From: Flectonema sp. DT1601
Taxonomy: Eukaryota
Assembly: GCA_964019425.1 (NCBI GenBank)
Contig: OZ025804.1
Span: forward strand, 1,116,001 to 1,180,000
Length of the DNA stretch: 64,000 nt
Reading direction: 5' to 3'
The position numbers and the translations under genes were made by a program. Position 1 is the stretch's first letter. Each line of letters starts with the position of its first letter. This document shows positions 16,157-44,304 of this stretch, one piece after another. The notes beneath the pieces were generated by a model. The model did no database searches and was not told where the DNA came from. It saw nothing but the letters and a program-made list of their open reading frames with translations.

Positions 16157-16992
16157 TTGTTTTATCAAAAACCTGAAATACAATAAATTTAAGTTTACAG
16201 ATCACCGGTTGTAAATAATTTTTTTTTTTTAAAAAAAAAAAAAAAAAGAAAGAAAGACAACAAAACAAACAATTGAAAATATCCGAACCTAATAACCCAC
16301 CACATATTGTTAATCAAAGAAAATTACGTTTAGAAAAAAGAAAACATAAAAAAGAGAAAACTATATTTTTTGTCTTACTGACCAGAAGACGTTGTCGAAT
16401 CTGGTAATTCGGGGACCACGTACTAACAGGTGAGCGTCCCATGCGAGAAGGGGGGTTGAATGTTTGAATTTGTAAAATACAACTGTTTTTGTATCGTATA
16501 ACATAGCGATAGTTTAACATCTGTTAAGGATACAGAGGGGGGGGATCGAAGGGGAGGGAGATAAACAAAACGTTCCTATCCCAAACATCATTACTTCAAG
16601 ACAATAGTCCCAAAGTTAGCAATGAGTGGGATAACTTCAACGACAGAAGAAAATTAAAAAAAAAAAAAAAAAAAAAAAAAGTTAATTTTTATGTTTTTTT
16701 AGGAGGGAAAAGATTTTTACCATTTATTTTAAAAAAAAATAAAAAAAAATACACAGCCATAGCCTAAAAGGAAAATACAATGTGAGAAGGTGACTGACAA
16801 TATGATTGAACATAAATTATTCATTAACTGAACCACGTGACAGGGGGAAATACAAACACCTCGAGGAAGATTTGAGCGCTATGGTCATTACAGTTGTTCG
16901 TGCCTGTGAGGGTCAGCAAGAATTATTGCCTGGCTTTTTTTTTTTTACGTTTTCACAGCCAACTCATACAACTTGATACTAATATTAAATGG

Positions 16993-17190
16993 AAAGCAAC
17001 TTGAAACTGGCAAAAACGAGAATAGGGTTCGGCCAAACCTGGTTGCAATAAAAGAAATCAACAGTTGGTATCGATAAAAAATCCCATATGTGCTGTCGAA
17101 TATGGGGATTCGGGGGCCACGTACTACAGGTTGAGCGCCCCATGCTCTGTAGCCCGTTACAGCTTAAAATAGTATTCCTTCACACTTTAA
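16993..17190. repeat. Dispersed short interspersed element copy carrying a structured motif
   Basis: Near-collinear with 19471-19667 (aaagcaacttgaaactggc...ttacagcttaaa). Core also at 16411-16445 and 27422-27475. Confidence 0.8.
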
Positions 17191-18360: not shown

Positions 18361-19470
18361 ATAGTTTAGTACCATAAGTAGAACAAATCAAGTGAGGAAA
18401 AATGTTCTCAGAGAAATTAAGGCTGAAAGAGAAAAAACCTAAACCTAATTATTATTGATTTATCCATATTACGTAATTGCTTCTTTGGAAAGGAAACCAC
18501 AAGTAATGTGGAGAAAAAAAGAATTCCTCGTTGATTCAGAGTCGTGTGTGAAATTGATTTTTTTTATTCCTCACAAGGGATAATTCCTTTTTTACAATAT
18601 AAAAAAAAAAAAATAATAATAAATAAAAAATATAAAAAATCCAAGGAAAAGAGAAACTGAGGGGGTGAACAAATCGTACAGCCGCCTGAAGAGAATAACA
18701 AAAAGTTGACAAATCAGCTAGCTAAGCGACTTGTAGAATTCTATACCGATTAGAATTTTTCTCAAAAGGCAGTTTTTTCGTGTGAAAGAACGAGAAAGAA
18801 AGCGAAAGAGAAAAGAGAGAGAGAGAAAGAGACACCCAAACTACTCGTTTTTTTTTTTTTTTTTTCCAGGACCGTTACATATAAAGTTAATTGTAGTGGC
18901 GGGGGAGGTACTTTGATGCTGCATTTTTTAATCTCGAAGGAACAATAATTTCTCCCGACAATCGACCGTTAGTATATGACTGCAAATAAATAAATAATGC
19001 GCACGTGAACATAGTTGAGCGCCCACTTGCCTATGTTACCGTAACAGTTTCTTCTTATAACTCGGGGGTAATTTGATCGGGTGAAAAAAAGATTTTCCGC
19101 TCTACAAAAGAAACATATATGTGGGGAAAAGAAGGGAGGAAAAAAAAAAAAAAAGGGAAGAAACGGTGCCGTCAACTATCTGAGTAATTTGATAGTATTT
19201 TTAAAACTCAACAAAGGGAACAACAATTTCTCCCGACGATCTTGACTGTCAGTAAGTGATCAGCCAATTATCCTGCGGGGGGTTGACTGTTTGATTTCGT
19301 ACGTAAAATACAACTGTTTTATCTGATTAACATTACGATAAAGGATAGGGCGATGATAAACTTTAGCCTTTTGTAACTATTTACGTTTCGAGAGTAATCT
19401 AATGTACCTCGTTACTTCTATTCCCTCTCATCAGTATGCAGGGGGTGTAACTTGATACGATGATTAAATA

Positions 19471-19667
19471 TAAAGCAACTTGAAACTGGCTAAAACGAAT
19501 ATAGGGTTCGGTCAAACCTGATTGCAATGAAAAGAGAACAACAGTTGGTATCGATAAAACATCACATGTGTGAATATGGGGATTCGGGGGGTCACGTACT
19601 ACAGGTTGAGCACCCCATGTTCTGTAGCCCCGTTACAGCTTAAAAATTAGTATTTCTTTACACATTT
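19471..19667. repeat. Second copy of the dispersed short element
   Basis: Matches 16993-17190; the neighbouring 19278-19340 resembles 16451-16510. Confidence 0.8.
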
Positions 19668-20406
19668 CGAAATCAAATAAAAATTTGAGAAAAAACTTAT
19701 TTCTAATTTTTGGCCACCCGCAGAGTTATAACAGTGCACCCATCCCTCAAAAAAAAATATTAAAAAAAATAAAAAATAAAAAATTGCAACGTAATAACGA
19801 AAACAATAATCCAACATACATAATCAAAAGATTGAAATATAGTTTTTTTTGTTTTTTTGTTTTCACAAGAAGGGAAGAAGGGTATCAAGCTTCACATCAT
19901 CCTACATCCCTTTCAGGACTTCCAACAAGGTGCGGATGATGACAACACTGCCAAGCAAATCGCAGCTGGGGGCACCAATACTAACAAAACGTTTGATCAG
20001 TAAAAGAGTATTCTCGCAAATTGTTCGTTTTTTTTTTTTTTTTTTTTAAAATCACTAAGTTACTACTCACGAAGGTGTTATATTATAGGGGAGAGGAAAG
20101 GGGGGCTACACAATTATAAAAAACACAAAAAGAGAAGGGAAAAAAAAAGAGGAGGAAAAAAAAAGGATTAAGGTATTTATAAAAATAAAATAACAAAAAA
20201 AATAGCGTCGCATCATAAAAAAAAAAAAAAAAAAAAAAAGGGACAGATATTAAATCATGGAGTTTTTATTTTGTTGTATCTCATAAATTATGATTCGATA
20301 ATTCGACATCCAGATTGAGTAGAATAAGGTGCACACGACTCGTGATTTTTTTTTTTTTTTTAAATCTTTTTTTCCCTTGAGTCCTCCGACATTCAACAAC
20401 AAGAGA

Positions 20407-24466: not shown

Positions 24467-24839
24467 ACCATGATCGAAAATGAAATTGCTTTTATTCAAG
24501 AAAGCTGTGAAGCTAAAATGCCCTTCCTCTCTCGAGTGATATACCCGTCTCTACAATAGAGCTACTCAATGGGGGTGTTGTACTTCACATTAACTTTCGC
24601 ACGCCGGCTTCGTTTTTTTCTCTTCACACAATTAGTTCCTTTGTACAAAACCGAAGAGCAACGGTTTCCATGTAATCGGATATCTAAATCATAAGTCTTG
24701 GGATTGTAAAAGAAGACAAAATAGTTGAAAAAGAATTCCCACATTGAACCACACCTCTCACATCAGTAGCAACTAAGAAAAACATCTCAAAAACAATCGG
24801 CAAACTTCACTTCTTTACTTACTCACTCACACTTTTATT

Positions 24840-25142
24840 TTGTTTGTGCGCAACCGGATTCACGAAGAAACCCCAAGATTCTTCAAAAGAAGCCAACAAG
24901 ACAACTCCCCAACCAGAACCACTAGCATCAGTGGCGATTCTTATCACCTTGCGTTCTGGATCGATCACCCATGTCGCCCATTTGTTTTTGAAGAGCGCAG
25001 AGAACTGCACTTCAATGTACTTCGCGATCGGTTCAACAGATGTCAATTCAGTCCACGGACGTCCCAGGGCTGCAGTACGTGACATCCAAGCAAGAATGGG
25101 GCGTAGAATGAGACGATCGGCAGGGTGGAGGTGTTCATGATT
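24840..25142 (-). mobile_element. DIRS/YR-retrotransposon-type RNase H relic
   Basis: IATDASGSGWGVV matches the TDAS..GWG start of DIRS-type RNase H; truncated on both sides. Confidence 0.6.
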
Positions 25143-25350
25143 TTTCACTTTGCTACACGAAAATTCACAATTTTTTCACAATTTTTCACACTTTTTCACA
25201 CTTTTTCATACTTTTTCACACTTTTTCACACTTTTTCACACTTTTTCACACTTTTTCACACTTTTTCACAATTTTTCACTTAATTTTTTGCTGCTTTCTG
25301 GTAGTGAAATCCCGTGAAAATGTGTGAAAATGTGTGAATTCTAGTGAAAA
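25142..25350. repeat. Decamer (TTTTTCACAC)n tract followed by inverted GTGAAAA copies
   Basis: About 11 tandem 10-mers at 25170-25280, then gtgaaaatgtgtgaaaatgtgtgaa at ~25314-25338. Confidence 0.85.
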
Positions 25351-27617
25351 AAAGTGAGTGATATCCAGATGGTACCGTTGGTGCTGGTGTGCTGTGCGAT
25401 GTCAAACCTGTTCAGTTTGCCATACATGTCTCTTTGACAACTAAATGGGCATCGCTTGTGCCCAGTGACATCACCCTTCCTGACCATCGCTTGTGGTGAG
25501 GTTCCGGACTTTGGACCGGCGCATCGCGTGTGCGGTGGGTTTAATCACTGAGGGGCTCATTCTCGTTCAGACTGTTCTGTTCTGTTCTGTTCTGTGGTGT
25601 CTTTCCATTACTCCTCCCATCTCTGCCAGGAGACAGCCTGACAACCCATATTGATATTGCTTGAGAGACAATGAGAGGTAATTCATTGGGGTAGAAATGG
25701 CTGTGTGGCCTGTACTCCTTAATATTCCCTTAATCACACCACAGGTACCCTCAGAGAGACCACAATTCATGTGTGTGGGAATTACGACGTCTGCGAGATG
25801 CCCAGGAAACCGAAGATACAGATCGATTTCCCGCACACATAAACAGCAGACCACCGATAGCATGAGCGTTATCCCTTCCTTGACCTCCAGGTCCTTCGCC
25901 TGAATCCCCTTCTTGCGAATTGTTGTAAGGAAGCTGCGGAACCGTAGAAAATTCTCCTCTATACTCTTGAGGGACTCACGTTCGCAAGGCAGGGAACACT
26001 TTTCGTCAGTACTGTGTGTTTTCATCAGTATAAACGAAACAACCGTCAGGGGTGGACTCCTCAGACAATGTGAATGCTGGTTCTGTAAGCCAGATATCGC
26101 GAACAACCCGACCATGATCATTCAGCAAATATGAGATGTCAATTGTGGCTGCCTCTGACATGTCCCGTGCAACCTCTGCCCAAAACTCGAGAAGTTCACT
26201 GAGCGCAGAGGTAATCGTGCAGGTTGACAGAGGTGGCGGTGTCGGATCAGTGATTAAGATTCCCAGCTGCTGGAAGTGGTGCAGCGCACGTCGTAGTGTG
26301 TCACAGAATGATTGAGCTTGAAACGATGTTGCCCCAGGTTATGAGTCAGCAACCTGCACTAAGCAATGTCTCAGAGTGCCGTACCGAGTGTCCGAACGTG
26401 ACAGAACGAATCAGCAGTACGGATACGTCACGCACGACGTCAGCGGCGGCATTCCTGACGGAACGGTCAGTGCTGTAGCATCACGGCTCCGATCGCTATG
26501 TCGATCGACCTTTAATTGTTTTCATCTTGAACGGGACATCACTCTCGCAATGATTTGATTTTCTACAATCATATCGGGTTATTTTCTCTCTTTTTCTTTT
26601 ACTTCTCCCTTCCCGTTTTCCTTTTCCTTTTCCCTTTATTACTCTCTATCTGGTCTGTTATGTCATAAATCTCATTTAATTTTATCAACCTTTTAACTTT
26701 TCACTGTTTCCCATCTACATTTTATTTTCAAATAGTTCCGGTCTGTCTTTGCGGGAAGAAACAGAAGCCTCATCTTCAATTCCATGGAAGTAGCTAGGCC
26801 TGGCCAGCTTACAGGACGAAGACTTCTAAAACCTAAGATGAACCAATTGAGTTGAAACAAACAAATAACAGAGACGCAACACATACCGGAACATCATCAG
26901 GCGCATCTCTTGTCTTAGCCCTAGCATGCTACGTTGGAACATTGTCACCAGCCCGGTGGACCAAGTTGTAATTATTGCCCCTGGTTTACTCATCACTCTT
27001 CCGTGTGACGGCGGTTATTCCCTAATAACCTGTTGTATGCTATACCTAAGTCTTTTACTTTTTTCTTCTTCACACGCTGTCGGTTTCCACCTTCGATGCA
27101 GTCAATCTTGTTCCGCCTTGGTTGTTTTTGGAAGAGCTAAGCTAAGTGGCAAGGTTTCACTAACAGATCGACTTTTTGTCAGCATCTCAGGCTTCTTTTT
27201 GCCGAGGACGTGCGGCTTTCTTTGAGGTCTCACAGTGACACTTTTAAAAGAAATTATCTATTCCGGTGGGTATAAAAAAAAGGGGGGGACTTGGATAAAT
27301 AAATCAAGGTTAACACGCAACAAATTAGACATGAATCATTATAACTGGATTCTGTCCACACAAAATCGCATGCTTTAAATAAACTACCAGAGAAAGAAAT
27401 GCTGTCAAGTCAAATTGACCCGGGGACCACGCACTACAGGTTGAGCATCCCATGCCCTGCAGGTCGTTACAGCTTGAAAACATTAATGCATTAATGGGTA
27501 ACCAATAAAAATTATCTGGGTGGGCAGTTACAGGGGTGAGAAAAAAAGAAAAGATAAATAACATGACAAGAATACGCTGGTTCGTAGCACACTACCAGTA
27601 AAGCCCATCCCATAAAC

Positions 27618-29776
27618 TCAGTTATGGTTGGTTTGACTCAAAAGCAGGAAAGGTTCACAAGTCAACTGATGGATTTGCAAACCTCGAATTCCCGCAAACC
27701 ATGTGCCTGCTTTCGTCGTTCGCATGCCACATCCACAACAAAAGTATATTCCAACGCAATTCAAACAAACATTCCAATCACATGTTAAGCTCTCACCATT
27801 ACAAGGGAGACGACATTCAAATATTTGTCCAAAGAAAAAATTTGAATCACATAAATCACAAAAAACCGGTTTGTTAATGAGAACCATTTCAAGATCGTGA
27901 CCTTGTGGGCAAGTAGTGGTTACACCATTTTGTTCTAACTCGGTATGTACTTTCATTGGTGAGAGCACCTTGCAGGATTTAGAATCTGTTTCATTGACGA
28001 TACTTTTCGATAAGAATCTACTCGTTACGTCCTTTTCGTTTAAAACAAATAAAGGTAATATGATTTCTAAACCTCCTTCACGCAATTTATCAAAGAGTAC
28101 CCCGGCTTCGTCAGGTAAGTTTTCACTCTCCACATCAGTAAAGCCAGAACAGGTAACCAAATTAAACAGGCCATTGAGAACGACCTCAGTATACTCTATA
28201 CACCAATCATTGATTACTGACCAATCGTATGGCCCTAGTATTGGGAAAAAGTGCTCAGATGGAACATTTGCATGGTGCCCGAGTATGATAAACCCCCTGA
28301 CAAGTAAAAAAGTAGACCGTGCGTCGGGAGCGACAAAGTAAGCGGAGTCTTTTTGCTCATAAGGGTCCATACTTAGGAAGAAAAAACTAACACCCAATAC
28401 ATTTGATAAGGCTTGTATGGCTGCATGGTCTGCCCACACACCATCAAAACCCATTCCAAGTGCATATTCGTCGTAATTACCGAGTACAAAGTTTTTATAT
28501 TTATCACTGTTATCTACTAACTCAGCACTGGTAAATTCACGTAGCGTCGCTGCATCAAAGAAGTAAAAAATTTGTTTCGATACTGCTTCAAACAATTACC
28601 AAAACGGTTCACGTCTTCAGGGTAAAGACCAACTTCTTCCATATACCATATCGTGTGGTCAATTGTAAAGTAATCCACTTTTCCTTCTTGAACAATTGGT
28701 TCTTCTGGAATCAACACTACGGCTTTAGGCGGGTAAACAATAAACTGTCTTTCTTTTGGAAAATGGTAAGAGTGAGGGTTGTTCAATTTACCAAAAACAA
28801 CATGAACTAAAGAAAGTAATCTCTTATATGTGGAATCGTAGGCTTTATAAAACTCATCGCAGAATTCACGAAAAGCAAATGCTACGTCTTGTTTCTTAAA
28901 ACCTCTTTTCCACATTCTATAAAGTATAAATTCAAATTCAACAAAAAGATCAGGTAAATTATTACAAATCATTGCAGCTCTAAACATAGCACCTTTAACC
29001 ACTCCTTTCGGTATAGACACGGAGTTGAATTTCCAGGTGAGATTTGGACTGTTAGCTTTTGGCTAAGGCCCTCCCTGAAGAGCAAGAACAAAAAAACTAC
29101 TCACACCTGAAGAAAACATACACAAAGAACACACTGTAAGCTGTGTGTGTATTTTGTGTTTGTCACAACAGGAGAGAAAAGAAAGAATGTCAAGGTTGGT
29201 CACCTTGCCTATCAACGCACAACATTGGTGGTCTCTACTAGACCCTGAGTGATCCCACTGGATCTCTCATCGTTCATAGTACCCTGTGTGAAGTTATAAA
29301 ATCAAAGGTAAACTATGAACTACAAATGACTTAGCCTGTTATTATAATGCCACAGGCAGGCCCTGCATTCAGCAACTATCCAGCAGTGCTTGGATGTCCT
29401 GATCTTCTTCTAAAAAAAAGAAAGAAAAACAAAACTGTAGCTGGGATCACTCAGGATCAACAGACTACCAATGCTACCTGTTGTACTTGCTCACTATGGG
29501 GGGTGATGCCAAACACCCAGAAGTACTAAACTGCTTTCCTTCTTGCTGCCCAGGAGTTTCTGACCAGAACTAATAGAAAATAAAAAGTAGATGGGAAACA
29601 ATAAAAAGTAAAATGGATATAACTGAAGTTAAACAAGACAAATGAAGTAACAGACCAGAACAGAAAGAGGATTGTGGCATAGTTGAATTACTATGAACAT
29701 ATTGCAAAGGGCGAAAAGACCAATCCTTTCGGCTTATAGATAACCTGATAAACTTTCTCTTTTCCTTTGTTTCAAT
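27618..29776 (-). mobile_element. 5'-truncated Penelope-like RT ORF (thumb region) + OTU protease + Zn fingers; frameshifted and interrupted by R1
   Basis: 29776-29676 joined to 29021-28517 reads ISRKDWSFRPLQYVHSNSTMP|VSIPKGVVKGAMFRAAMICNN...F..E...L..RGF (PLE thumb pattern). Then D..R.GNC/LFEAVSKQ...WADHAAIQALSNVL...EHF (OTU), CPQGH..CDLC..C..CDWNVCLNC and a C2HC finger. No GIY-YIG seen. Confidence 0.7.
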
Positions 29777-32119
29777 GAGTTGAATTTCCAGGTGAGATTT
29801 GGACTGTTAGCTTTTGGCTAAGGCCCTCCCTGAAGAGCAAGAACAAAAAAACTACTCACACCTGAAGAAAACATACACAAAGAACACACTGTAAGCTGTG
29901 TGTATATTTTGTGTTTGTCACAACAGGAGAGAAAAGAAAGAATGTCAAGGTTGGTCACCTTGCCTATCAACGCACAACATTGGTGGTCTCTACTAGACCC
30001 TGAGTGATCCCACTGGATCTCTCATCGTTCATAGTACCCTGTGTGAAGTTATAAAATCAAAGGTAAACTATGAACTACAAATGACTTAGCCTGTTATTAT
30101 AATGCCACAGGCAGGCCCTGCATTCAGCAACTATCCAGCAGTGCTTGGATGTCCTGATCTTCTTCTAAAAAAAAGAAAGAAAAACAAAACTGTAGCTGGG
30201 ATCACTCAGGATCAACAGACTACCTATGCTACCTGTTGTACTTGCTCACTATGGGGGGTGATGCCAAACACCCAGAAGTACTAAACTGCTTTCCTTCTTG
30301 CTGCCCAGGAGTTTCTGACCAGAACTAATAGAAAATAAAAAGTAGATGGGAAACAATAAAAAGTAAAATGGATATAACTGAAGTTAAACAAGACAAATGA
30401 AGTAACAGACCAGAACAGAAAGAGAATTGTAATAGAAGATTACAAATAAAAAAATGCAAGTATCAACACATGATCAAGATACACCAGCAGCTAACAAACA
30501 ACATAAAATTGAAGATCAGTTGCCAGAGTATTTCAACCATGGTAGAATACTCGCCCCTCTGGCAGGGATTATCCCAGACTTGTCCTTTAATTTAGTTGGA
30601 CACCATGGCTTACAACCCTTCCAGAGGGAAGCACCATTATGACTTCTATTTTTTTCTTCAAGAAAATCATAAGGTGGTAACAAAGAAAAATGCTAAGAGG
30701 AACCCCTTATTAACACCTAAGACATCTAAACTGCAGCCCAGCTTATGCCCAATGCACTAACAGGTCATTCCCTCACACTCAGATCAAAAAATCAAAGTTC
30801 AGAGTGCATCTTAGCATGAATGAGAGAATTTCCTCCCGCTTTTTTTGAACAAAAGGGATAGGAGAAGGGATAGAAAACGAACATAACAATAAGATTCTAA
30901 GTGAGAAACACTTAGCAGAAACACTTAGCAGCTTTTAAGGAGCTGAAAAGCAAAAAAAATATCTAAGTGAGAAACACTTAGTAGAAACAATTTGTAGCTA
31001 ATTAAGCTGAAAATAAAAAAATAAAAAAAATTTCTAAGTGAGAAATACTTAGCAACTTTTAGAACAAATATTCCAGTAAATAACCTGTAATGATTAAACC
31101 ATTACAAGTTTGATGCCAAAACTGACAAAGACTGAGTTGAATTTCCAGGTGAGATTTGGACTGTTAGCTTTTGGCTAAGGCCCTCCCTGAAGAGCAAGAA
31201 CAAAAGAACTACTCACACCTGAAGAAAACATACACAAAGAACACACTGTAAGCTGTGCGTGTATTTTGTGTTTGTCACAACAGGAGAGAAAAGAAAGAAT
31301 GTCAAGGTTGATCACCTTGCCTATCAACGCACAACATTGGTGGTCTCTACTAGACCCTGAGTGATCCCACTGGATCTCTCATCGTTCATAGTACCTATGT
31401 GAAGTTATAAAATCAAAGGTAAACTATGAACTACAAATGACTTAGCCTGTTATTATAATGCCACAGGCAGGCCCTGCATTCAGCAACTATCCAGCAGTGC
31501 TTGGATGTCCTGATCTTCTTCTAAAAAAAAGAAAGAAAAACAAAACTGTAGCTGGGATCACTCAGGATCAACAGACTACCAATGCTACCTGTTGTACTTG
31601 CTCACTATGGGGGGTGATGCCAAACACCCAGAAGTACTAAACTGCTTTCCTTCTTGCTGCCCAGGAGTTTCTGACCAGAACTAATAGAAAATAAAAAGTA
31701 GATGGGAAACAATAAAAAGTAAAATGGATATAACTGAAGTTAAACAAGACAAATGAAGTAACAGACCAGAACAGAAAGAGAATTGTAATAGAAGATTACA
31801 AATAAAAAAATGCAAGTATCAACACATGATCAAGATACACCAGCAGCTAACAAACAACATAAAATTGAAGATCAGTTGCCAGAGTATTTCAACCATGGTA
31901 GAATACTCGCCCCTCTGGCAGGGATTATCCCAGACTTGTCCTTTAATTTAGTTGGACACCATGGCTTACAACCCTTCCAGAGGGAAGCACCATTATGACT
32001 TCTATTTTTTTCTTCAAGAAAATCATAAGGTGGTAACAAAGAAAAATGCTAAGAGGAACCCCTTATTAACACCTAAGACATCTAAACTGCAGCCCAGCTT
32101 ATGCCCAATGCACTAACAG

Positions 32120-32566
32120 AAATACTACCGAAATGCTTGTCACAATGGCTCTTGCCGTGCCTTCCGGGAAAGAAGTTAACACTTTTGACATTCGGGTGTG
32201 CCAGAAGCTCGCTTATGACTGTGGCATTCCGAAAGTGTGTGCCACTGTCACACCAGATGTGGATTGGTTTCATGTTCTTCCTGATTAAAGGCATCTCCCA
32301 CAGCTTGCGAAGACATAAATAAGTCACAGCCGCATCTTGATTTGTGTGTGGCAAGAGAAGGTCAATGTACTGTTGTCGAGTTTCATCGTGCAACTTGAAA
32401 TGCATAACTATACCCAGACAACTGTACTTCCCCTGCTGGTAGTAGTGTGATGATGACTCTTGTGGTACCTGTGGCAGGGTACCCTTCTCCTTATAGTCGA
32501 GTGTTATAATTAAGCTATCCCCAGGGTCAGCAGTGTTTTCTGAATAGACTGCATTCTGTCTCTTAA
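32120..32566 (-). mobile_element. Sola-like DDE transposase fragment (catalytic core)
   Basis: LIITLDYKEK ... IHIWCDSGTHFRN ... VNFFPGRHGKSHCDKHFG, matching the D..D..HGK..CD pattern of Sola2/3-type transposases. Confidence 0.7.
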
Positions 32567-34789
32567 ACTGAGTTGAATTTCCAGGTGAGATTTGGACTGT
32601 TAGCTTTTGGCTAAGGCCCTCCCTGAAGAGCAAGAACAAAAAAACTACTCACACCTGAAGAAAACATACACAAAGAACACACTGTAAGCTGTGTGTGTAT
32701 TTTGTGTTTGTCACAACAGGAGAGAAAAGAAAGAATGTCAAGGTTGGTCACCTTGCCTATCAACGCACAACATTGGTGGTCTCTACTAGACCCTGAGTGA
32801 TCCCACTGGATCTCTCATCGTTCATAGTACCCTATGTGAAGTTATAAAATCAAAGGTAAACTATGAACTACAAATGACTTAGCCTGTTATTATAATGCCA
32901 CAGGCAGGCCCTGCATTCAGCAACTATCCAGCAGTGCTTGGATGTCCTGATCTTCTTCTAAAGAAAAGAAAGAAAAACAAAACTGTAGCTGGGATCACTC
33001 AGGATCAACAGACTACCAATGCTACCTGTTGTACTTGCTCACTATGGGGGGTGATGCCAAACACCCAGAAGTACTTAACTACTTTCCTTCTTGCTGCCCA
33101 GGAGTTTCTGACCAGAACTAATAGAAAATAAAAAGTAGATGGGAAACAATAAAAAGTAAAATGGATATAACTGAAGTTAAACAAGACAAATGAAGTAACA
33201 GACCAGAACAGAAAGAGAATTGTAATAGAAGATTACAAATAAAAAAATGCAAGTATCAACACATGATCAGGATACACCAGCAGCTAACAAACAACATAAA
33301 ATTGAAGATCAGTTGCCAGAGTATTTCAACCATGGTAGAATACTCGCCCCTCTGGCAGGGATTATCCCAGACTTGTCCTTTAATTTAGTTGGACACCATG
33401 GCTTACAACCCTTCCAGAGGGAAGCACCATTATGACTTCTATTTTTTTTCTTCAAGAAAATCATAAGGTGGGAACAAAGAAAAATGCTAAGAGGAACCCC
33501 CTATTAACACCTAAGACATCTAAACTGCAGCCCAGCCTATGCCCAATGCACTAACAGGTCATTCCCTCACACTCAGATCAAAAAATCAAAGTTCAGAGTG
33601 CATCTTAGCGTGAATGAGAGAATTTCCTCCCGCTTATTTTGAACAAAAGGGATAGGAGAAGGGATAGAAAACGAACATAAAAATAAAATTCTAAGTGAGA
33701 AACACTTAGCAGAAACACTTAGCAGCTTTTAAGGAGCTGAAAAGCAAAAAAAAAATCTAAGTGAGAAACACTTAGTAGAAACAATTTGTAGCTAATTAAG
33801 CTGAAAATAAAAAAATAAAAAATTTCTAAGTGAAAAATACTTAGCAACTTTTAGAACAAATATTTCAGTAAATAACCTGTAATGATTAAACCATTACAAG
33901 TTTGATGCCAAAACTGACAAGGACTGAGTTGAATTTCCAGGTGAGATTTGGACTGTTAGCTTTTGGCTAAGGCCCTCCCTGAAGAGCAAGAACAAAAAAA
34001 CTACTCACACCTGAAGAAAACATACACAAAGAACACACTGTAAGCTGTGTGTGTATTTTGTGTTTGTCACAACAGGAGAGAAAAGAAAGAATGTCAAGGT
34101 TGGTCACCTTGCCTATCAACGCACAACATTGGTGGTCTCTACTAGACCCTGAGTGATCCCACTGGATCTCTCATCGTTCATAGTACCCTATGTGAAGTTA
34201 TAAAATCAAAGGTAAACTATGAACTACAAATGACTTAGCCTGTTATTATAATGCCACAGGCAGGCCCTGCATTCAGCAACTATCCAGCAGTGCTTGGATG
34301 TCCTGATCTTCTTCTAAAGAAAAGAAAGAAAAACAAAACTGTAGCTGGGATCACTCAGGATCAACAGACTACCAATGCTACCTGTTGTACTTGCTCACTA
34401 TGGGGGGTGATGCCAAACACCCAGAAGTACTTAACTACTTTCCTTCTTGCTGCCCAGGAGTTTCTGACCAGAACTAATAGAAAATAAAAAGTAGATGGGA
34501 AACAATAAAAAGTAAAATGGATATAACTGAAGTTAAACAAGACAAATGAAGTAACAGACCAGAACAGAAAGAGAATTGTAATAGAAGATTACAAATAAAA
34601 AAATGCAAGTATCAACACATGATCAGGATACACCAGCAGCTAACAAACAACATAAAATTGAAGATCAGTTGCCAGAGTATTTCAACCATGGTAGAATACT
34701 CGCCCCTCTGGCAGGGATTATCCCAGACTTGTCCTTTAATTTAGTTGGACACCATGGACACTTCTACATGATAATGAACCTCAACAAGT

Positions 34790-36058
34790 TCGATCGACTA
34801 TGTCGATTACTTTCTATTTTCCGTCCTGGTCAAGACGCTAAACTGATTGTTTTTTTTTTTTCAAAATAAAAAAAATATTAAAAAAAAAAAATAAAAAAAA
34901 AAGAATAAACAATGTTATCATTGTTTTTTTTTATCGTTCGACTTTGTCGACTAATTTCTATTTTCCGTTTTTTTTTTTTCTTTGAAAAATAAATAAAAAG
35001 AATTTAAAATAAAAAAAAAAGAATAAACAATGTTATCATTGTTTTTTTTTATCGATCGACTATGTCGATTACTTTCTATTTTCCGTCCTGGTCAAGACGC
35101 TAAACTGATTGTTTTTTTTTCAAAATTAATAAAAAAGAATATAAAAAAAATAAAAAAAAAAAGAATAAACAATGTTATCATTGTTTTTTTTTATCGTTCG
35201 ACTTTGTTGACTAATTTCTATTTTCCATTTTTTTTCTTTTTAAAAATAAATAAAAAGAATTAAAAAAAAAAAAAAAAAGAATAAACAATGTTATCATTGT
35301 TTTTTTTATCGATCGACTATGTCGATTACTTTCTATTTTCCGTCCTGGTCAAGACGCTAAACTGATTGTTTTTTTTTCAAAATTAATAAAAAAGAATATA
35401 AAAAAAATAAAAAAAAAAAGAATAAACAATGTTATCATTGTTTTTTTTTATCGTTCGACTTTGTTGACTAATTTCTATTTTCCATTTTTTTTCTTTTTAA
35501 AAATTAATAAAAAAGAAAAAAAAAAAAAAAAAAAAAAAGGAATAAACAATGTTATCATTGTTTTTTTTTTATCGATCGACTATGTCGATTACTTACTATT
35601 TTCCGTCCTGATCGAGACGCTAAACTGATTGTTTCCTTTTTTTAAATAATAAATAAGAAAAAAAAAAAAAAAAAAAAGAGCATCTCCCTGCTATCCCTCA
35701 TATCCCCACAATAATATTATACCTTTTCATTTTCTCTTTCCTTTTCTGGTCTTTTTTTTTTTCTTTTTTTTTCCTTTTTCATACAACGTTTTTTATTTAT
35801 ATATTTTTTTTTTTTTTTTTTTTTCATGTTTGATTATTTCCTCTTCATTTTTTTTTTTTTTTTTTCTCTGCCTCTCTCTTAATTCTGTTCGTTTCTTTGA
35901 AACGAAAATTCATTTGAATATTATTCCTTGGTCAGCAACCATCATTGTCGCCCTTTGGGCCTGTTAAAAGAAAATAAAAAATAAAAAGAAAGTTTACATC
36001 GGGAATAGGGCAGGAGCCAAAAGCTCCCAGTCCGTTACTTCCCACTTTATCGAAATTC
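34790..36058 (+). mobile_element. Family ST copy 1: ~110/130-bp satellite array plus ~380-bp unique terminal segment
   Basis: Alternating units with hairpins aaacaatg-ttat-cattgttt, atcgac-tat-gtcgat and cgtc..gacg; fixed right end ...ctttatcgaaattc. Confidence 0.85.
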
Positions 36059-36371
36059 GTTGATAAATGACATAGCACTGGTCGTGCACTGGCAGGTAAG
36101 CCACCCTTACTGGACACCATTAGCTGCAACGTCAGCGCACTGGCACGCGCAGCATTCCAAACAGTTAATGAGTAACCACTCTGTCGCTCAACACTGCTAA
36201 GTAGTTTTGACAGTTTCTTTCTAATTGTCTGTCCACACAGGCAGTACGAGCAGACGTCAGTTCGCCGTGCAAGGTGACGATATTCCTTCCCACGCATACG
36301 ACGGTATGTAGATTCTGATATCAGATCACGAATACTGCTGACTTCATAGATAGATTTAAATGTTCCAAGGA
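36059..36371 (-). mobile_element. Sola-like transposase fragment (RTDVCSYC zinc-binding region); duplicated at 44305-44617
   Basis: ISESTYRRMRGKEYRHLARRTDVCSYC resembles the TD.C..C motif upstream of the Sola DDE; joins neighbouring fragments in frame. Confidence 0.6.
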
Positions 36372-38568
36372 TGAGTTAAGTTACCAGGTGAGATTTGGAC
36401 TGTTAGCTTTTGGCTAAGGCCCTCCCTGAAGAGCAAGAACAAAAAAACTACTCACACCTGAAGAAAACATACACAAAGAACACACTGTAAGCTGTGTGTG
36501 TATTTTGTGTTTGTCACAACAGGAGAGAAAAGAAAGAATGTCAAGGTTGGTCACCTTGCCTATCAACGCACAACATTGGTGGTCTCTACTAGACCCTGAG
36601 TGATCCCACTGGATCTCTCATCGTTCATAGTACCCTGTGTGAAGTTATAAAATCAAAGGTAAACTATGAACTACAAATGACTTAGCCTGTTATTATAATG
36701 CCACAGGCAGGCCCTGCATTCAGCAACTATCCAGCAGTGCTTGGATGTCCTGATCTTCTTCTAAAAAAAAGAAAGAAAAACAAAACTGTAGCTGGGATCA
36801 CTCAGGATCAACAGACTACCAATGCTACCTGTTGTACTTGCTCACTATGGGGGGTGATGCCAAACACCCAGAAGTACTTAACTGCTTTCCTTCTTGCTGC
36901 CCAGGAGTTTCTGACCAGAACTAATAGAAAATAAAAAGTAGATGGGAAACAATAAAAAGTAAAATGGATATAACTGAAGTTAAACAAGACAAATGAAGTA
37001 ACAGACCAGAACAGAAAGAGGATTGTAATAGAAGATTACAAATAAAAAAATGCAAGTATCAACACATAATCAAGATACACCAGCAGCTAACAAACAACAT
37101 AAAATTGAAGATCAGTTGCCAGAGTATTTCAACCATGGTAGAATACTCGCCCCTCTGGCAGGGATTATCCCAGACTTGTCCTTTAATCTAGTTGGACACC
37201 ATGGCTTACAACCCTTCCAGAGGGAAGCACCATTATGACTTCTATTTTTTTCTTCAAGAAAATCATAAGGTGGGAACAAAGAAAAATGCTAAGAGGAACC
37301 CCCTATTAACACCTAAGACATCTAAACTGCAGCCCAGCCTATGCCCAATGCACTAACAGGTCATTCCCTCACACTCAGATCAAAAAATCAAAGTTCAGAG
37401 TGCATCTTAGCATGAATGAGAGAATTTCTCATCGCTTTTTTTGAACAAAAGGGATAGGAGAAGGGATAGAAAACGAACATTAAAATAAAATTCTAAGTGA
37501 GAAACACTTAGCAGAAATACTTAGCAGCTTTTAAGGAGCTGAAAAGCAAAAAAAAAAATCTAAGAGAAACACTTAGTAGAAACACTTTGTAGCTAATTGA
37601 GCTGAAAATAAAAAAATAAAAAATTTCTAAGTGAGAAATACTTAGCAACTTTTAGAACAAATAATTAAGTAAATAACCTGTTGAAATGGTAGTTAAATGA
37701 AAACCATTACAGGTTTGATGCCAAAACTGACAAAGAATGAGTTAAGTTACCAGGTGAGATTTGGACTGTTAGCTTTTGGCTAAGGCCCTCCCTGAAGAGC
37801 AAGAACAAAAAAACTACTCACACCTGAAGAAAACATACACAAAGAACACACTGTAAGCTGTGTGTGTATTTTGTGTTTGTCACAACAGGAGAGAAAAGAA
37901 AGAATGTCAAGGTTGGTCACCTTGCCTATCAACGCACAACATTGGTGGTCTCTACTAGACCCTGAGTGATCCCACTGGATCTCTCATCGTTCATAGTACC
38001 CTGTGTGAAGTTATAAAATCAAAGGTAAACTATGAACTACAAATGACTTAGCCTGTTATTATAATGCCACAGGCAGGCCCTGCATTCAGCAACTATCCAG
38101 CAGTGCTTGGATGTCCTGATCTTCTTCTAAAAAAAAGAAAGAAAAACAAAACTGTAGCTGGGATCACTCAGGATCAACAGACTACCAATGCTACCTGTTG
38201 TACTTGCTCACTATGGGGGGTGATGCCAAACACCCAGAAGTACTAAACTGCTTTCCTTCTTGCTGCCCAGGAGTTTCTGACCAGAACTAATAGAAAATAA
38301 AAAGTAGATGGGAAACAATAAAAAGTAAAATGGATATAACTGAAGTTAAACAAGACAAATGAAGTAACAGACCAGAACAGAAAGAGAATTGTAATAGAAG
38401 ATTACAAATAAAAAAATGCAAGTATCAACACATGATCAGGATACACCAGCAGCTAACAAACAACATAAAATTGAAGATCAGTTGCCAGAGTATTTCAACC
38501 ATGGTAGAATACTCGCCCCTCTGGCAGGGATTATCCCAGACTTGTCCTTTAATCTAGTTGGACACCAT

Positions 38569-38843
38569 TCTGCAACGTAACAGTCTCGCGACGTTGAGCT
38601 GAAAGCCTTTTTACTACTATTGAAGTCTCAGACGAGGCTGCATTGTGCTCGCTCTCTACCTGACTGCATAGCTCTGGGCAGATCTTCCTTGGCCTCCCTA
38701 TATCTACGGGCACATCGCTTTTAGCATCCCAGGCCTTTCTGCCTATTTTTAGCCCAGCTTCTTCTAGAAAGCTTAACTTCCATCCTTTTTCTTCTAGAGA
38801 CTGCAGTACTTCTCGTCTGTCACCCGTTTCCATTTTCACAATA
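38569..38843 (-). mobile_element. Sola-like transposase N-terminal fragment; duplicated at 46815-47089
   Basis: Open frame with GRPRK; continues in frame into 36371-36059 once R6/R7 are removed. Confidence 0.55.
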
Positions 38844-39264
38844 GAGTTAAGTTACCAGGTGAGATTTGGACTGTTAGCTTTTGGCTAAGGCCCTCCCTGA
38901 AGAGCAAGAACAAAAAAAACTACTCACACCTGAAGAAAACATACACAAAGAACACACTGTAAGCTGTGTGTGTATTTTGTGTTTGTCACAACAGGAGAGA
39001 AAGGAGTTGAATTTCCAGGTGAGATTTGGACTGTTAGCTTTTGGCTAAGGCCCTCCCTGAAGAGCAAGAACAAAAAAACTACTCACACCTGAAGAAAACA
39101 TACACAAAGAACACACTGTAAGCTGTGTGTGTATTTTGTGTTTGTCACAACAGGAGAGAAAAGAAAGAATGTCAAGGTTGGTCTTGCCTATCAACGCACA
39201 ACATTGGTGGTCTCTACTAGACCCTGAGTGATCCCACTGGATCTCTCATCGTTCATAGTACCCT

Positions 39265-42200
39265 TGTTTTTTTTCAAAATTAATAAAAAAGAATATAAAA
39301 AAAAAAAAAAAAAAAGAATAAACAATGTTATCATTGTTTTTTTTTTATCGTTCGACTTTGTCGACTAATTTCTATTTTCCGTTTCTTTTCTTTAAAGAAT
39401 AAATAAAAAGAATTTAAAATAAAAAAAAGAATAAACAATGTTATCATTGTTTTTTTATCGATCGACTATGTCGATCACTTTCTATTTTCCGTCCTGGTCA
39501 AGACGCTAAACTGATTGTTTTTTTTCAAAATTAATAAAAAAGAATATAAAAAAAAAAAAAAAAAAAGAATAAACAATGTTATCATTGTTTTTTTTTTATC
39601 GTTCGACTTTGTCGACTAATTTCTATTTTCCGTTTCTTTTCTTTAAAGAATAAATAAAAAGAATTTAAAATAAAAAAAAAGAATAAACAATGTTATCATT
39701 GTTTTTTTATCGATCGACTATGTCGATCACTTTCTATTTTCCGTCCTGGTCAAGACGCTAAACTGATTGTTTTTTTTTCAAAATTAATAAAAAAGAATAT
39801 AAAAAAAAAAAAAAAAAAAAGAATAAACAATGTTATCATTGTTTTTTTTTTATCGTTCGACTTTGTCGACTAATTTCTATTTTCCGGTTCTTTTCTTTAA
39901 AGAATAAATAAAAAGAATTTAAAATAAAAAAAAAGAATAAACAATGTTATCATTGTTTTTTTATCGATCGACTATGTCGATCACTTTCTATTTTCCGTCC
40001 TGGTCAAGACGCTAAACTGATTGTTTTTTTTTTTCAAAATTAATAAAAAAGAATATAAAAAAATACAAAAAAAAGAATAAACAATGTTATCATTGTTTTT
40101 TTTATCGTTCGACTTTGTCGACTAATTTCTATTTTCCGTTTTTTTTTCTTTAAAAAATAAATAAAAAGAATTTAAAATAAAAAAAAAGAATAAACAATGT
40201 TATCATTGTTTTTTTATCGATCGACTATGTCGATCACTTTCTATTTTCCGTCCTGGTCAAGACGCTAAACTGATTGTTTTTTTTTTTTCAAAATTAATAA
40301 AAAAGAATATTAAAAAAAATAAAAAAAAAAAGAATAAACAATGTTATCATTGTTTTTTTTTTATCGTTCGACTTTGTCGACTAATTTCTATTTTCCGTTT
40401 TTTTCTTTAAAAAATAAATAAAAAGAATTTAATAAAAAAAAAGAATAAACAATGTTATCATTGTTTTTTTTTATCGATCGACTATGTCGATTACTTTCTA
40501 TTTTCCGTCCTGGTCAAGACGCTAAACTGATTGTTTTTTTTTTCAAAATAAAAAAAAAATATTAAAAAAAAAAAATAAAAAAAAAGAATAAACAATGTTA
40601 TCATTGTTTTTTTTTATCGTTCGACTTTGTTGTTTTTTCTTTAAAAAATAAATAAAAAGAATTTAAAAAAAAAAAAAAAAAAAAAAAGAATAAACAATGT
40701 TATCATTGTTTTTTTTATCGATCGACTATGTCGATTACTTTCTATTTTCCGTCCTGGTCAAGACGCTAAACTGATTGTTTTTTTTTCAAAATTAATAAAA
40801 AAGAATATAAAAAAATACAAAAAAAAGAATAAACAATGTTATCATTGTTTTTTTTATCGATCGACTATGTCGATTACTTTCTATTTTCCGTCCTGGTCAA
40901 GACGCTAAACTGATTGTTTTTTTTTCAAAATAAAAAAAAAATATTAAAAAAAAAAAATAAAAAAAAAGAATAAACAATGTTATCATTGTTTTTTTTTATC
41001 GTTCGACTTTGTTGACTAATTTCTATTTTCCGTTTTTTTTCTTTAAACAATTAATAAAAAGAATTTAAAAAAAAAAAAAAAAAAAAAGAATAAACAATGT
41101 TATCATTGTTTTTTTTATCGATCGACTATGTCGATTACTTTCTATTTTCCGTCCTGGTCAAGACGCTAAACTGATTGTTTTTTTTTCAAAATTAATAAAA
41201 AAGAATATAAAAAAATACAAAAAAAAGAATAAACAATGTTATCATTGTTTTTTTTTATCGTTCGACTTTGTCGACTAATTTCTATTTTCCGTTTTTTTTT
41301 CTCTTTAAAAAATAAATAAAAAGAATTTAAAATAAAAAAAAAAAAGAATAAACAATGTTATCATTGTTTTTTTTATCGATCGACTATGTCGATTACTTTC
41401 TATTTTCCGTCCTGGTCAAGACGCTAAACTGATTGTTTTTTTTTCAAAATTAATAAAAAAGAATATAAAAAAAAAAAAAAAAAAAAGAATAAACAATGTT
41501 ATCATTGTTTTTTTTTATCGTTCGACTTTGTTGACTAATTTCTATTTTCCATTTTTTTTCTTTTTAAAAAATAAATAAAAAGAATTAAAATAAAAAAAAA
41601 AAAAAAGAATAAACAATGTTATCATTGTTTTTTTTATCGATCGACTATGTCGATTACTTTCTATTTTCCGTCCTGGTCAGAACGCTAAACTGATTGTTTT
41701 TTCTTTAAAAATAAATAAAAAGAATAAAAAAAAAAAAAAAGGAATAAACAATGTTATCATTGTTTTTTTTTTATCGATCGACTATGTCGATTACTTACTA
41801 TTTTCCGTCCTGGTCAAGACGCTAAACTGATTGTTTTTTCTTTAAAATAATTAAAAAGATTAAAAAAAAAAAAAAAAAAAAAAAATGAATAAACAATGTT
41901 ATCATTGTTTTTTTTCTATCGATCAACTATGTCGATTAATTTCTATTTTCCGTCCTGATCGAGACGCTAAACTGATTGTTTCCTTTTTTTAAATAATAAA
42001 TAAGAAAAAAAAAAAAAAAAAAAAAAAAAGAGCATCTCCCTGCTATCCCTCATATCCCCACAATAATATTATACCTTTTCATTTTCTCTTTCCTTTTCTG
42101 GTCTTTTTTTTTTCTTTTTTTTCCTTTTTCATACAACGTTTTTTATTTATATATATATTTTTTTTTTTTTTTTTTCATGTTTGATTATTTCCTCCTTATT

Positions 42201-42433: not shown

Positions 42434-43035
42434 AGCTGTGAAGTTATAAAATCAAAGGTAAACTATGAACTACAAATGACTTAGCCTGTTATTATAATGC
42501 CACAGGCAGGCCCTGCATTCAGCAACTATCCAGCAGTGCTTGGATGTCCTGATCTTCTTCTAAAAAAAAGAAAGAAAAACAAAACTGTAGCTGGGATCAC
42601 TCAGGATCAACAGACTACCAATGCTACCTGTTGTACTTGCTCACTATGGGGGGTGATGCCAAACACCCAGAAGTACTAAACTGCTTTCCTTCTTGCTGCC
42701 CAGGAGTTTCTGACCAGAACTAATAGAAAATAAAAAGTAGATGGGAAACAATAAAAAGTAAAATGGATATAACTGAAGTTAAACAAGACAAATGAAGTAA
42801 CAGACCAGAACAGAAAGAGAATTGTAATAGAAGATTACAAATAAAAAAATGCAAGTATCAACACATGATCAGGATACACCAGCAGCTAACAAACAACATA
42901 AAATTGAAGATCAGTTGCCAGAGTATTTCAACCATGGTAGAATACTCGCCCCTCTGGCAGGGATTATCCCAGACTTGTCCTTTAATTTAGTTGGACACCA
43001 TGGACACTTCTACATGATAATGAACCTCAACAAGT

Positions 43036-44304
43036 TCGATCGACTATGTCGATTACTTTCTATTTTCCGTCCTGGTCAAGACGCTAAACTGATTGTTTTT
43101 TTTTTTTCAAAATAAAAAAAATATTAAAAAAAAAAAATAAAAAAAAAAGAATAAACAATGTTATCATTGTTTTTTTTTATCGTTCGACTTTGTCGACTAA
43201 TTTCTATTTTCCGTTTTTTTTTTTTCTTTGAAAAATAAATAAAAAGAATTTAAAATAAAAAAAAAAGAATAAACAATGTTATCATTGTTTTTTTTTATCG
43301 ATCGACTATGTCGATTACTTTCTATTTTCCGTCCTGGTCAAGACGCTAAACTGATTGTTTTTTTTTCAAAATTAATAAAAAAGAATATAAAAAAAATAAA
43401 AAAAAAAAGAATAAACAATGTTATCATTGTTTTTTTTTATCGTTCGACTTTGTTGACTAATTTCTATTTTCCATTTTTTTTCTTTTTAAAAATAAATAAA
43501 AAGAATTAAAAAAAAAAAAAAAAAGAATAAACAATGTTATCATTGTTTTTTTTATCGATCGACTATGTCGATTACTTTCTATTTTCCGTCCTGGTCAAGA
43601 CGCTAAACTGATTGTTTTTTTTTCAAAATTAATAAAAAAGAATATAAAAAAAATAAAAAAAAAAAGAATAAACAATGTTATCATTGTTTTTTTTTATCGT
43701 TCGACTTTGTTGACTAATTTCTATTTTCCATTTTTTTTCTTTTTAAAAATTAATAAAAAAGAAAAAAAAAAAAAAAAAAAAAAAGGAATAAACAATGTTA
43801 TCATTGTTTTTTTTTTATCGATCGACTATGTCGATTACTTACTATTTTCCGTCCTGATCGAGACGCTAAACTGATTGTTTCCTTTTTTTAAATAATAAAT
43901 AAGAAAAAAAAAAAAAAAAAAAAGAGCATCTCCCTGCTATCCCTCATATCCCCACAATAATATTATACCTTTTCATTTTCTCTTTCCTTTTCTGGTCTTT
44001 TTTTTTTTCTTTTTTTTTCCTTTTTCATACAACGTTTTTTATTTATATATTTTTTTTTTTTTTTTTTTTTCATGTTTGATTATTTCCTCTTCATTTTTTT
44101 TTTTTTTTTTTCTCTGCCTCTCTCTTAATTCTGTTCGTTTCTTTGAAACGAAAATTCATTTGAATATTATTCCTTGGTCAGCAACCATCATTGTCGCCCT
44201 TTGGGCCTGTTAAAAGAAAATAAAAAATAAAAAGAAAGTTTACATCGGGAATAGGGCAGGAGCCAAAAGCTCCCAGTCCGTTACTTCCCACTTTATCGAA
44301 ATTC
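43036..44304 (+). mobile_element. Family ST copy 3 (duplicate of copy 1)
   Basis: Same flanks and sequence as 34790-36058 at offset 8246. Confidence 0.85.

What the first reader, a model, noticed from the sequence alone, without database searches (positions are those of the whole stretch)
27618..29776. Penelope-like RT carrying an OTU deubiquitinase and Zn fingers where GIY-YIG would be expected
Seen: a PLE-type thumb segment runs into an OTU-like domain and Cys/His fingers in what was one ORF, with no GIY-YIG before the stop. R1 is inserted cleanly at ATG CC|C GTG. Established: OTU domains occur in some non-LTR elements and viruses, and endonuclease-less PLEs exist; I do not recall this combination in PLEs. 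Inference: an EN-less RT is a candidate driver of TSD-free R/ST insertion. However, I did not find the CAAAA stem-loop downstream of this ORF, so the link is unproven.
Basis: partly seen in the sequence, partly recalled or inferred. Interest (0 to 1): 0.75.

Follow-up and report, generated by a model that had tools for sequence, protein, structure and literature searches.

The report
Penelope-like retrotransposon with OTU deubiquitinase tail
This is a broken copy of a Penelope-like retrotransposon whose reverse-transcriptase gene runs on into an OTU-type protease domain, predicted to strip ubiquitin, and two zinc fingers; it likely has its DNA-cutting domain at the front, as its sister family does, so it is an unusual variant of a known group and not a cutter-less element.

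Summary
Window 27618-29776 (minus strand) is the 3' half of a Penelope-like element (PLE) ORF: thumb, OTU domain, C1-like finger and C2HC finger. It is cut by a 654-nt R1 insert and frameshifted just after the OTU cysteine. Uninterrupted copies exist: 4 of 12 cluster members carry RT, thumb, OTU and fingers in one ORF, with OTU above the Pfam cut-off. The 'endonuclease-less' inference is weak. The RT has the Naiad/Chlamys marks (CxC, DKA, long fingers insert). A sister family (38% identical, same tail) has an N-terminal GIY-YIG without CCHH in 3 of 15 listed members. In this clade nothing is expected after the thumb. The window's own family has no recovered endonuclease, so secondary loss stays open (about 20%). 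Chara Chlamys elements with a Josephin-like plus Cys/His tail are published; I found no OTU in a PLE in print. Two Naiad-group relatives carry a USP domain at the same place. R1 looks like a non-autonomous PLE, but no link to this family was found. Verdict: new variant of Chlamys.

The parts
29676..29776 (-). 5'-most surviving piece of the PLE ORF: end of RT palm and start of thumb (P0008 aa 583-616); abuts the 3' end of an R1 dimer
   Evidence: 33 of 33 aa identical to P0008
29022..29675 (-). R1 insert: 5'-truncated (654 nt) copy of a 1357-nt non-coding repeat, inside the Pro616 codon, no recognisable target-site duplication
28829..29021 (-). RT thumb, remainder (P0008 aa 617-680)
   Evidence: the thumb is 64% identical between the two OTU families and aligns to the Naiad thumb of P0014
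28634..28828 (-). thumb-to-OTU linker (aa 681-745)
   Evidence: in frame here and in 7 of 12 cluster members that span thumb and OTU Cys
28233..28633 (-). OTU-type cysteine protease domain (aa about 746-880). Cys codon at 28592-28594, followed at once by a frameshift; predicted catalytic His codon at 28251-28253
   Evidence: Pfam OTU 28.9 bits vs cut-off 23.3 on intact copies; PDB OTUD1 and OTUD5 hits; GNCFFE and SEH motifs kept in the sister family. The His assignment is inferred from motif position
27753..27917 (-). C1-like zinc finger (aa about 986-1040)
   Evidence: sister-family P0027: Pfam C1_2 E=0.0036, below cut-off; PKC-alpha C1 E=0.015; Cys/His kept in both families
27645..27752 (-). 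C-x2-C...H-x3-C finger (aa about 1041-1076)
   Evidence: pattern present in both families; no library hit
27618..27620 (-). stop codon of the ORF
   Evidence: all full-tail cluster members end at the same residue
27400..27485 (.). conserved 60-85 nt hairpin-forming motif about 140 nt downstream of the stop, shared with 17091-17169, 19587-19685 and partly 16410-16444; possibly part of the element's 3' region, unproven
   Evidence: 21-nt core found 3 times vs 0.00 expected; no Rfam family
29777..32119 (-). R1 partial tandem (5'-truncated copy followed by a full unit) joined to the 5' end of the PLE fragment; context, not part of the ORF

Best explanation
The stretch is a dead, 5'-truncated copy of a young multi-copy Penelope-like retrotransposon whose single ORF joins the reverse transcriptase to an OTU domain and two zinc fingers; it likely belongs to the Chlamys type with the GIY-YIG endonuclease at the N-terminus, and the OTU is predicted to act as a deubiquitinase. 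Shown: the order CxC - DKA - RT - thumb - OTU - C1-like - C2HC in one frame in this family, and GIY-YIG - same order in the sister family. Inferred from known PLE biology: the N-terminal GIY-YIG nicks DNA, the RT copies the element's RNA from the nick, and premature stops give 5'-truncated copies like this one. Inferred, my preferred function (about 60%): the OTU removes ubiquitin from the element's own polyprotein, or from chromatin or repair proteins at the insertion site, so the ribonucleoprotein escapes degradation long enough to insert; the fingers would supply nucleic-acid, chromatin or ubiquitin contacts. R1 is likely a non-autonomous PLE that later inserted into this copy; which autonomous family moves it is not shown.
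For: 4 of 12 cluster members hold YIDD, thumb, OTU and finger in one ORF. P0008 has CxC (C96-x-C98), DKA (aa 223), and 88 aa between RT motifs A and B, against 83-87 in five Naiad-type rows. The sister family aligns over 1123 aa at 38% including the whole tail; 3 of the 15 listed members (of 29) have an in-frame N-terminal GIY-YIG (Pfam E=0.002-0.005, below cut-off). That EN lacks the CxxC and matches the Chlamys-type EN of L008 (phmmer E=5.7e-10), which passes the Pfam cut-off. RT tree: the two OTU families group 100/100 and fall with L003/L006/L008 on one side of a 100/100 split from 20 Naiad-type rows (same split in the 50-row quick tree). No telomeric repeat and no canonical hammerhead were found, which EN-minus Athena/Coprina have. 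OTU Cys and His motifs are kept between families whose OTU domains are only 26% identical. Published precedent: Chara Chlamys-1, -4 and -6 have a Josephin-like plus Cys/His tail.
Against: No endonuclease was recovered for the window's own family. Its longest ORF (P0008) starts matching at about aa 337 of the sister protein, after 29 unrelated residues, and a search with the sister EN among shorter proteins returned only a sister-family fragment (1 hit of 10 candidates). The OTU is atypical: Phe or Ala stands where OTUs usually have Asp three residues before the Cys, and no Asp/Asn follows the His by two (the usual states are recalled). A viral OTU also has a hydrophobic residue at that position. 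The Pfam and PDB alignments cover only the N-terminal 60% of the OTU model and do not reach the His. The tree has no outgroup and the 50-row run warned of long branches meeting. No activity or expression data exist.
Confidence: 0.75

Rival explanations
1. This family has secondarily lost its endonuclease, like the PLE-X families inside Chlamys, and inserts at existing 3'-OH ends or borrows the sister family's endonuclease in trans. This is the surviving form of the first reader's idea.
For: None of the 12 cluster members has an EN, and no separate cluster of 596 aa or more was found for this family; the EN search among shorter proteins found none. EN loss inside EN+ clades is published.
Against: P0008 loses similarity abruptly in mid-linker, as expected of 5' truncation or a frameshift, which the paper describes as common at this position. 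L008 shows exactly that EN/RT frameshift. The word-based search is insensitive at about 35-40% identity. Copies are listed with at least 11 different contig lengths, and the window copy is internal with no telomeric repeat.
Confidence: 0.2
2. The OTU is catalytically weak or dead and serves as a ubiquitin-binding module, or it cleaves the polyprotein itself rather than removing ubiquitin.
For: Atypical residues around the Cys and His, and only 26% identity between the families in this domain, against 59-64% in RT and thumb.
Against: The Cys and His motifs are the best-kept parts of the domain. A USP domain, from an unrelated deubiquitinase family, occupies the same slot in L025/L026, which points to ubiquitin removal as the selected function.
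Confidence: 0.25
3. The OTU part is a host gene that happens to lie next to, or was recently transduced by, a PLE fragment.
For: PLEs are known to transduce host DNA (passage in PMC6431247).
Against: In-frame fusion in 7 of 12 members, and the same fusion in a family only 38% identical.
Confidence: 0.02

Closest known systems
Chlamys Penelope-like elements, especially Chlamys-1/-4/-6_cBra of Chara braunii (Craig et al. 2021, PMC8557442)
   Same: CxC linker, DK motif, long fingers insert, no canonical hammerhead found; N-terminal GIY-YIG without CCHH (seen in the sister family); long C-terminal extension with a deubiquitinase-type protease and a Cys/His domain; RT motifs visibly similar to the published Chlamys-1_cBra rows (by eye).
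   Different: The protease is OTU, not Josephin-like, and it is followed by a C1-like and a C2HC finger. The EN is not recovered for this very family. The host lineage was not tested. The Chara tail sequence was cut in the supplement, so homology of the two tails was not tested.
Naiad PLEs
   Same: DKA, CxC, fingers insert, N-terminal EN layout.
   Different: Naiad ENs have a CxxC between GIY and YIG (17 of 20 EN motifs found in the loci); the sister family lacks it, and the RTs separate at 100/100. L025/L026 in the Naiad group carry USP instead.
EN-minus PLEs Athena/Coprina
   Same: No endonuclease after the thumb.
   Different: No telomeric repeats or canonical hammerhead found here; the CxC/DKA marks and the EN-bearing sister family point to Chlamys.
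OTU/Ulp1/USP-bearing DNA transposons (Ginger1, Helitron-like elements, Mutator) and Josephin-bearing Dualen non-LTR elements
   Same: A ubiquitin or SUMO protease fused to the mobilisation enzyme; Ginger1 carries either OTU or Ulp1 at the C-terminus.
   Different: Unrelated transposition chemistry; an analogy only.

Membership tests
Penelope-like elements | PLE-type RT with core motifs and thumb | tested here: met
   RVT_1 E=4e-5, below cut-off; DFTTMY, GIPMG and RYIDD; nearest relatives are N-terminal-EN PLE-like ORFs
Penelope-like elements | pseudo-LTR / partial-tandem structure of the element itself | not testable with these tools
Naiad/Chlamys clade | CxC motif in the EN-RT linker | tested here: met
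   CKC in P0008 and CPC in P0016
Naiad/Chlamys clade | DKA / DK motif | tested here: met
   IDKA at aa 222 of P0008
Naiad/Chlamys clade | insertion in fingers (longer RT3-RT4 region) | tested here: met
   88 and 91 aa vs 83-87 in Naiad-type rows and 72-76 in L003/L006/L008; no canonical PLE row was available as a control
Naiad/Chlamys clade | N-terminal GIY-YIG endonuclease | tested here: inconclusive
   present in the sister family; not recovered for the window's family
Chlamys | EN lacks CCHH and the upstream CxxC finger | tested here: met
   sister-family EN only: one Cys between GIY and YIG; best match is the CxxC-less L008 EN
Chlamys | RT groups apart from Naiads | tested here: met
   100/100 split, unrooted, with no published Chlamys sequence in the tree
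Chlamys | no canonical hammerhead (most families) | tested here: met
   none by Rfam or regex in 1.2 kb downstream or in R1; the element's true 3' end is undefined
Athena/Coprina (EN-minus) | telomeric repeats next to a hammerhead; terminal location | tested here: not met
   0 matches to a TTAGGG dimer (the host's telomere unit is unknown); no other tandem array at the element's end
Canonical EN+ PLEs (Penelope/Poseidon, Neptune, Nematis, Hydra) | C-terminal GIY-YIG | tested here: not met
OTU deubiquitinases | OTU profile match with catalytic Cys | tested here: met
   28.9 bits vs cut-off 23.3; OTUD1 E=3.2e-5; the sister family has no Pfam OTU hit of its own but the two-family profile hits OTUD5 at E=3e-4
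OTU deubiquitinases | His placed in a catalytic dyad/triad in an OTU fold | tested here: inconclusive
   SEH motif kept in both families; both AlphaFold models had mean pLDDT about 33
OTU deubiquitinases | ubiquitin isopeptidase activity | not testable with these tools
   needs an assay

The most novel reading that the evidence does not exclude
Moving the endonuclease to the N-terminus freed the C-terminus of Penelope-like proteins, and separate lineages have filled that slot with three unrelated deubiquitinases: OTU here, Josephin-like in Chara Chlamys, USP in a Naiad subclade. Ubiquitin would then be a general host restriction on telomerase-related retroelements, answered by an element-borne counter-defence.
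Probability: 0.4. Interest if true: 0.7.

Novelty: new variant of a known kind. Interest (0 to 1): 0.45.

Why it matters
It adds an OTU-bearing architecture to the permuted Penelope-like clade. With the USP relatives found here and the published Josephin-like case, it suggests repeated recruitment of ubiquitin-removing enzymes by retroelements, as already noted for DNA transposons. The sister family has apparently intact 1428-aa copies, so whether retrotransposition needs the deubiquitinase can be tested directly. It is also a caution: a missing C-terminal GIY-YIG does not make a PLE endonuclease-less.

Tried and rejected
No whole genome was held, so the DNA of other copies, their termini and an upstream EN could not be examined. 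Sequencing runs: none was listed. The profile search of 1.84 billion representatives was never run, so the wider spread of the OTU fusion is not known. ESM Atlas gave no usable hit for the thumb or the tail. Two AlphaFold models had mean pLDDT about 33, so no fold search was run. Scans with the two-family alignment found no relative in viral contigs (0 of 65 stretches) or metagenome contigs (0 of 290); the wider alignment found 73 of 326 in metagenomes and 0 of 250 in viral contigs; phage records gave no match. OTU: 0 of 73 loci at E<0.5 with a two-sequence profile of limited reach; only 41 of the 73 reach the end of the thumb, and 7 of those have a tail of 60 aa or more. The Josephin-like look of the L008 tail is by eye only: Pfam and PDB gave nothing, so it is not counted as evidence. 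An apparent 35-nt PLE 'tail' on R1 at 51701 proved to be a tandem junction and was rejected. A sequence link between R1's 3' end and the region downstream of the ORF was not found; the only match is an inverted R1-like stretch at 26535-26768, similar to the middle of R1. A ribozyme reading of the 27400-27485 motif had no support. The careful 50-row tree did not finish; a quick tree and a careful 25-row tree were used, leaving out rows lacking the RT core, near-duplicates and the three long-branch rows.

Full report
Observation. The window is repeat-rich and looks eukaryotic (poly-A/T tracts, tandem arrays). Its lineage was not tested. On the minus strand, three pieces between 29776 and 27618 encode the end of an RT palm, a thumb, an OTU-like domain and Cys/His fingers. 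A search with the thumb piece returned one cluster (1 hit of 58 candidates) of 12 members up to 1084 aa. One member, P0006, equals the window's last ORF apart from its first residue. Against P0008 the pieces are 33 of 33, 140 of 141 and 314 of 324 identical. R1 lies inside codon 616 with no residue gained or lost, and a frameshift follows the OTU Cys codon. No upstream part of the ORF and no GIY-YIG occur in the window.

The fusion belongs to the element. 7 of 12 members run from thumb to OTU Cys in one frame, and 4 of 12 hold YIDD, thumb, OTU and finger together. OTU scores 28.9-29.7 bits against a cut-off of 23.3 and hits OTUD1 at E=3.2e-5. A whole-length search (4 hits of 7474 candidates) found a second family, P0013 (29 members, 15 listed). 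One contig length is shared between the two member lists, so the families likely come from the same assembly. Its 1428-aa members align with P0008 over 1123 aa at 38%, tail included. Identity is 59-64% in RT and thumb, 26% in OTU and 33-40% in the fingers, with the GNCFFE and SEH motifs kept. The sister OTU has no Pfam hit of its own, but a two-family profile hits OTUD5 at E=3e-4 and a series of other OTUs more weakly. The first finger is C1-like, with weak support.

Where the endonuclease is. Three of the 15 listed sister members begin with a GIY-YIG domain that has no CxxC between its two motifs. Craig et al. 2021 (PMC8557442; main-text parts 1-6 of 10 read, two supplement searches and one supplement part) define a clade with this permuted order, a CxC linker, DKA/DK, a fingers insert and usually no hammerhead. 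They note that truncation and frameshifts often detach the EN. P0008 has CxC, DKA and the long insert. The published Chara Chlamys-1 rows for EN and RT resemble ours by eye. Among 73 metagenome loci, the best RT matches (L008, L003, L006/L007) are Chlamys-like: L008 and L009 have the CxxC-less EN. A 25-row tree groups the two OTU families (100/100) and separates them, together with L003/L006/L008, from 20 Naiad-type rows (100/100; unrooted). The absence of a GIY-YIG after the thumb is therefore normal here. The open point is the window's own family: its longest ORF starts in mid-linker, and a search with the sister EN found no counterpart. I give secondary loss about 20%.

R1. R1 is a 1357-nt non-coding unit with a fixed 3' end on the minus strand and variable 5' ends; several insertions are a truncated copy followed by a full unit. 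Junctions show no duplication beyond chance, and a second insertion splits another ORF at a boundary compatible with a clean insertion. This matches the partial tandems of PLEs and the non-autonomous Chlamys partners described (PMC9977147, passages). In a canonical PLE, reverse transcription starts in an AC-rich stem-loop (PMC11167929, passages), which makes R1's CAAAA hairpin a lead. But R1 shares no 3' sequence with the region downstream of this ORF, so this family is not shown to be its driver. An EN-bearing PLE explains R1 as well as an EN-less one would.

Mechanism. Shown: domain order and multi-copy, near-identical members. Inferred from PLE biology: nick by the N-terminal GIY-YIG, then target-primed reverse transcription with frequent 5' truncation. 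Inferred for the tail: ubiquitin removal that protects the polyprotein or eases insertion (about 60%), against a binding-only or self-cleaving role (about 25%). The atypical residues near the Cys and His, and the failed folds, limit this.

Comparison and novelty. Chara Chlamys-1, -4 and -6 have a Josephin-like plus Cys/His tail. The supplement cut long protein lines, so I could not see or compare that tail. OTU, Ulp1 and USP domains are known in Ginger1, Helitron-like and Mutator transposons (PMC2836005, PMC11417382 and PMC6431247, passages). PMC5718144 and the retrozyme preprint 10.64898/2026.07.22.740005 (passages) added nothing on OTU. Seven searches (listings only, except for the papers named) showed no OTU in a PLE, and the Craig text and supplement hold no 'OTU'; the library lacks most subscription papers and Repbase reports. 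Among the loci, L026 has EN, RT and USP in one 1344-aa ORF (E=2.6e-26) and L025 has a frameshifted USP (15 of the 25 candidate tails were scanned, plus two others). That is 2 of the 41 loci that reach the thumb end; 0 of 73 had OTU. Two earlier AI notes from another genome report OTU in Chlamys-like elements; these are unchecked leads and show that the combination is not unique within this scan.

Verdict. A real and tidy new variant of a known clade. The OTU fusion is well supported, the 'endonuclease-less driver' reading is not, and the most interesting thread is the repeated recruitment of different deubiquitinases to the same slot. Interest 0.45.

Noticed in passing
L026:24-4055 and L025:3-2563: Naiad-group PLEs with a C-terminal USP/UCH deubiquitinase domain (Pfam UCH E=2.6e-26 in frame with EN and RT in L026; frameshifted in L025); they form a supported subclade with L021 and L039.
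   Followed up: partly
L008:4486-5229; L028:650-1099: Chlamys-type elements with long tails; L008 has a Cys...His...Trp/Asp pattern that looks Josephin-like by eye, but has no library support. L003, L006/L007 and L008 share another Cys/His motif in the tail.
   Followed up: partly
window 27400-27485, 17091-17169, 19587-19685, 16410-16444: Conserved hairpin-forming motif in four otherwise different contexts; 16970-17188 and 19449-19667 are 86% identical. Possibly a small non-autonomous family or a shared RNA signal; no Rfam match.
   Followed up: partly
window 32085-32648, 35935-36375, 38552-38851 (minus; the last two repeated at 44181-44621 and 46798-47097): Fragments that look like one DDE-type DNA transposase gene (motif recalled; no Pfam hit) split by R1 dimers and ST arrays.
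   Followed up: partly
window 26535-26768: Diverged R1-like stretch (about 79% over 99 nt) in the opposite orientation, downstream of the PLE.
   Followed up: partly
window 54354-63292: Four tandem copies of a 415-452 aa ORF with a weak HNH_2 match (E=0.0009, below cut-off) near the C-terminus and variable N-terminal coiled regions.
   Followed up: no
window 24822-25175 (minus): Short ORF containing an ATDAS..GWG motif, recalled as typical of RNase H in DIRS/LTR retroelements; not tested.
   Followed up: no
window about 35000-39300 and 43000-47500: An 8.2-kb-spaced duplication of the ST array, R1 dimer and transposase fragments.
   Followed up: no
window 11194-13278: Tandem array with a unit of about 290 nt.
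   Followed up: no
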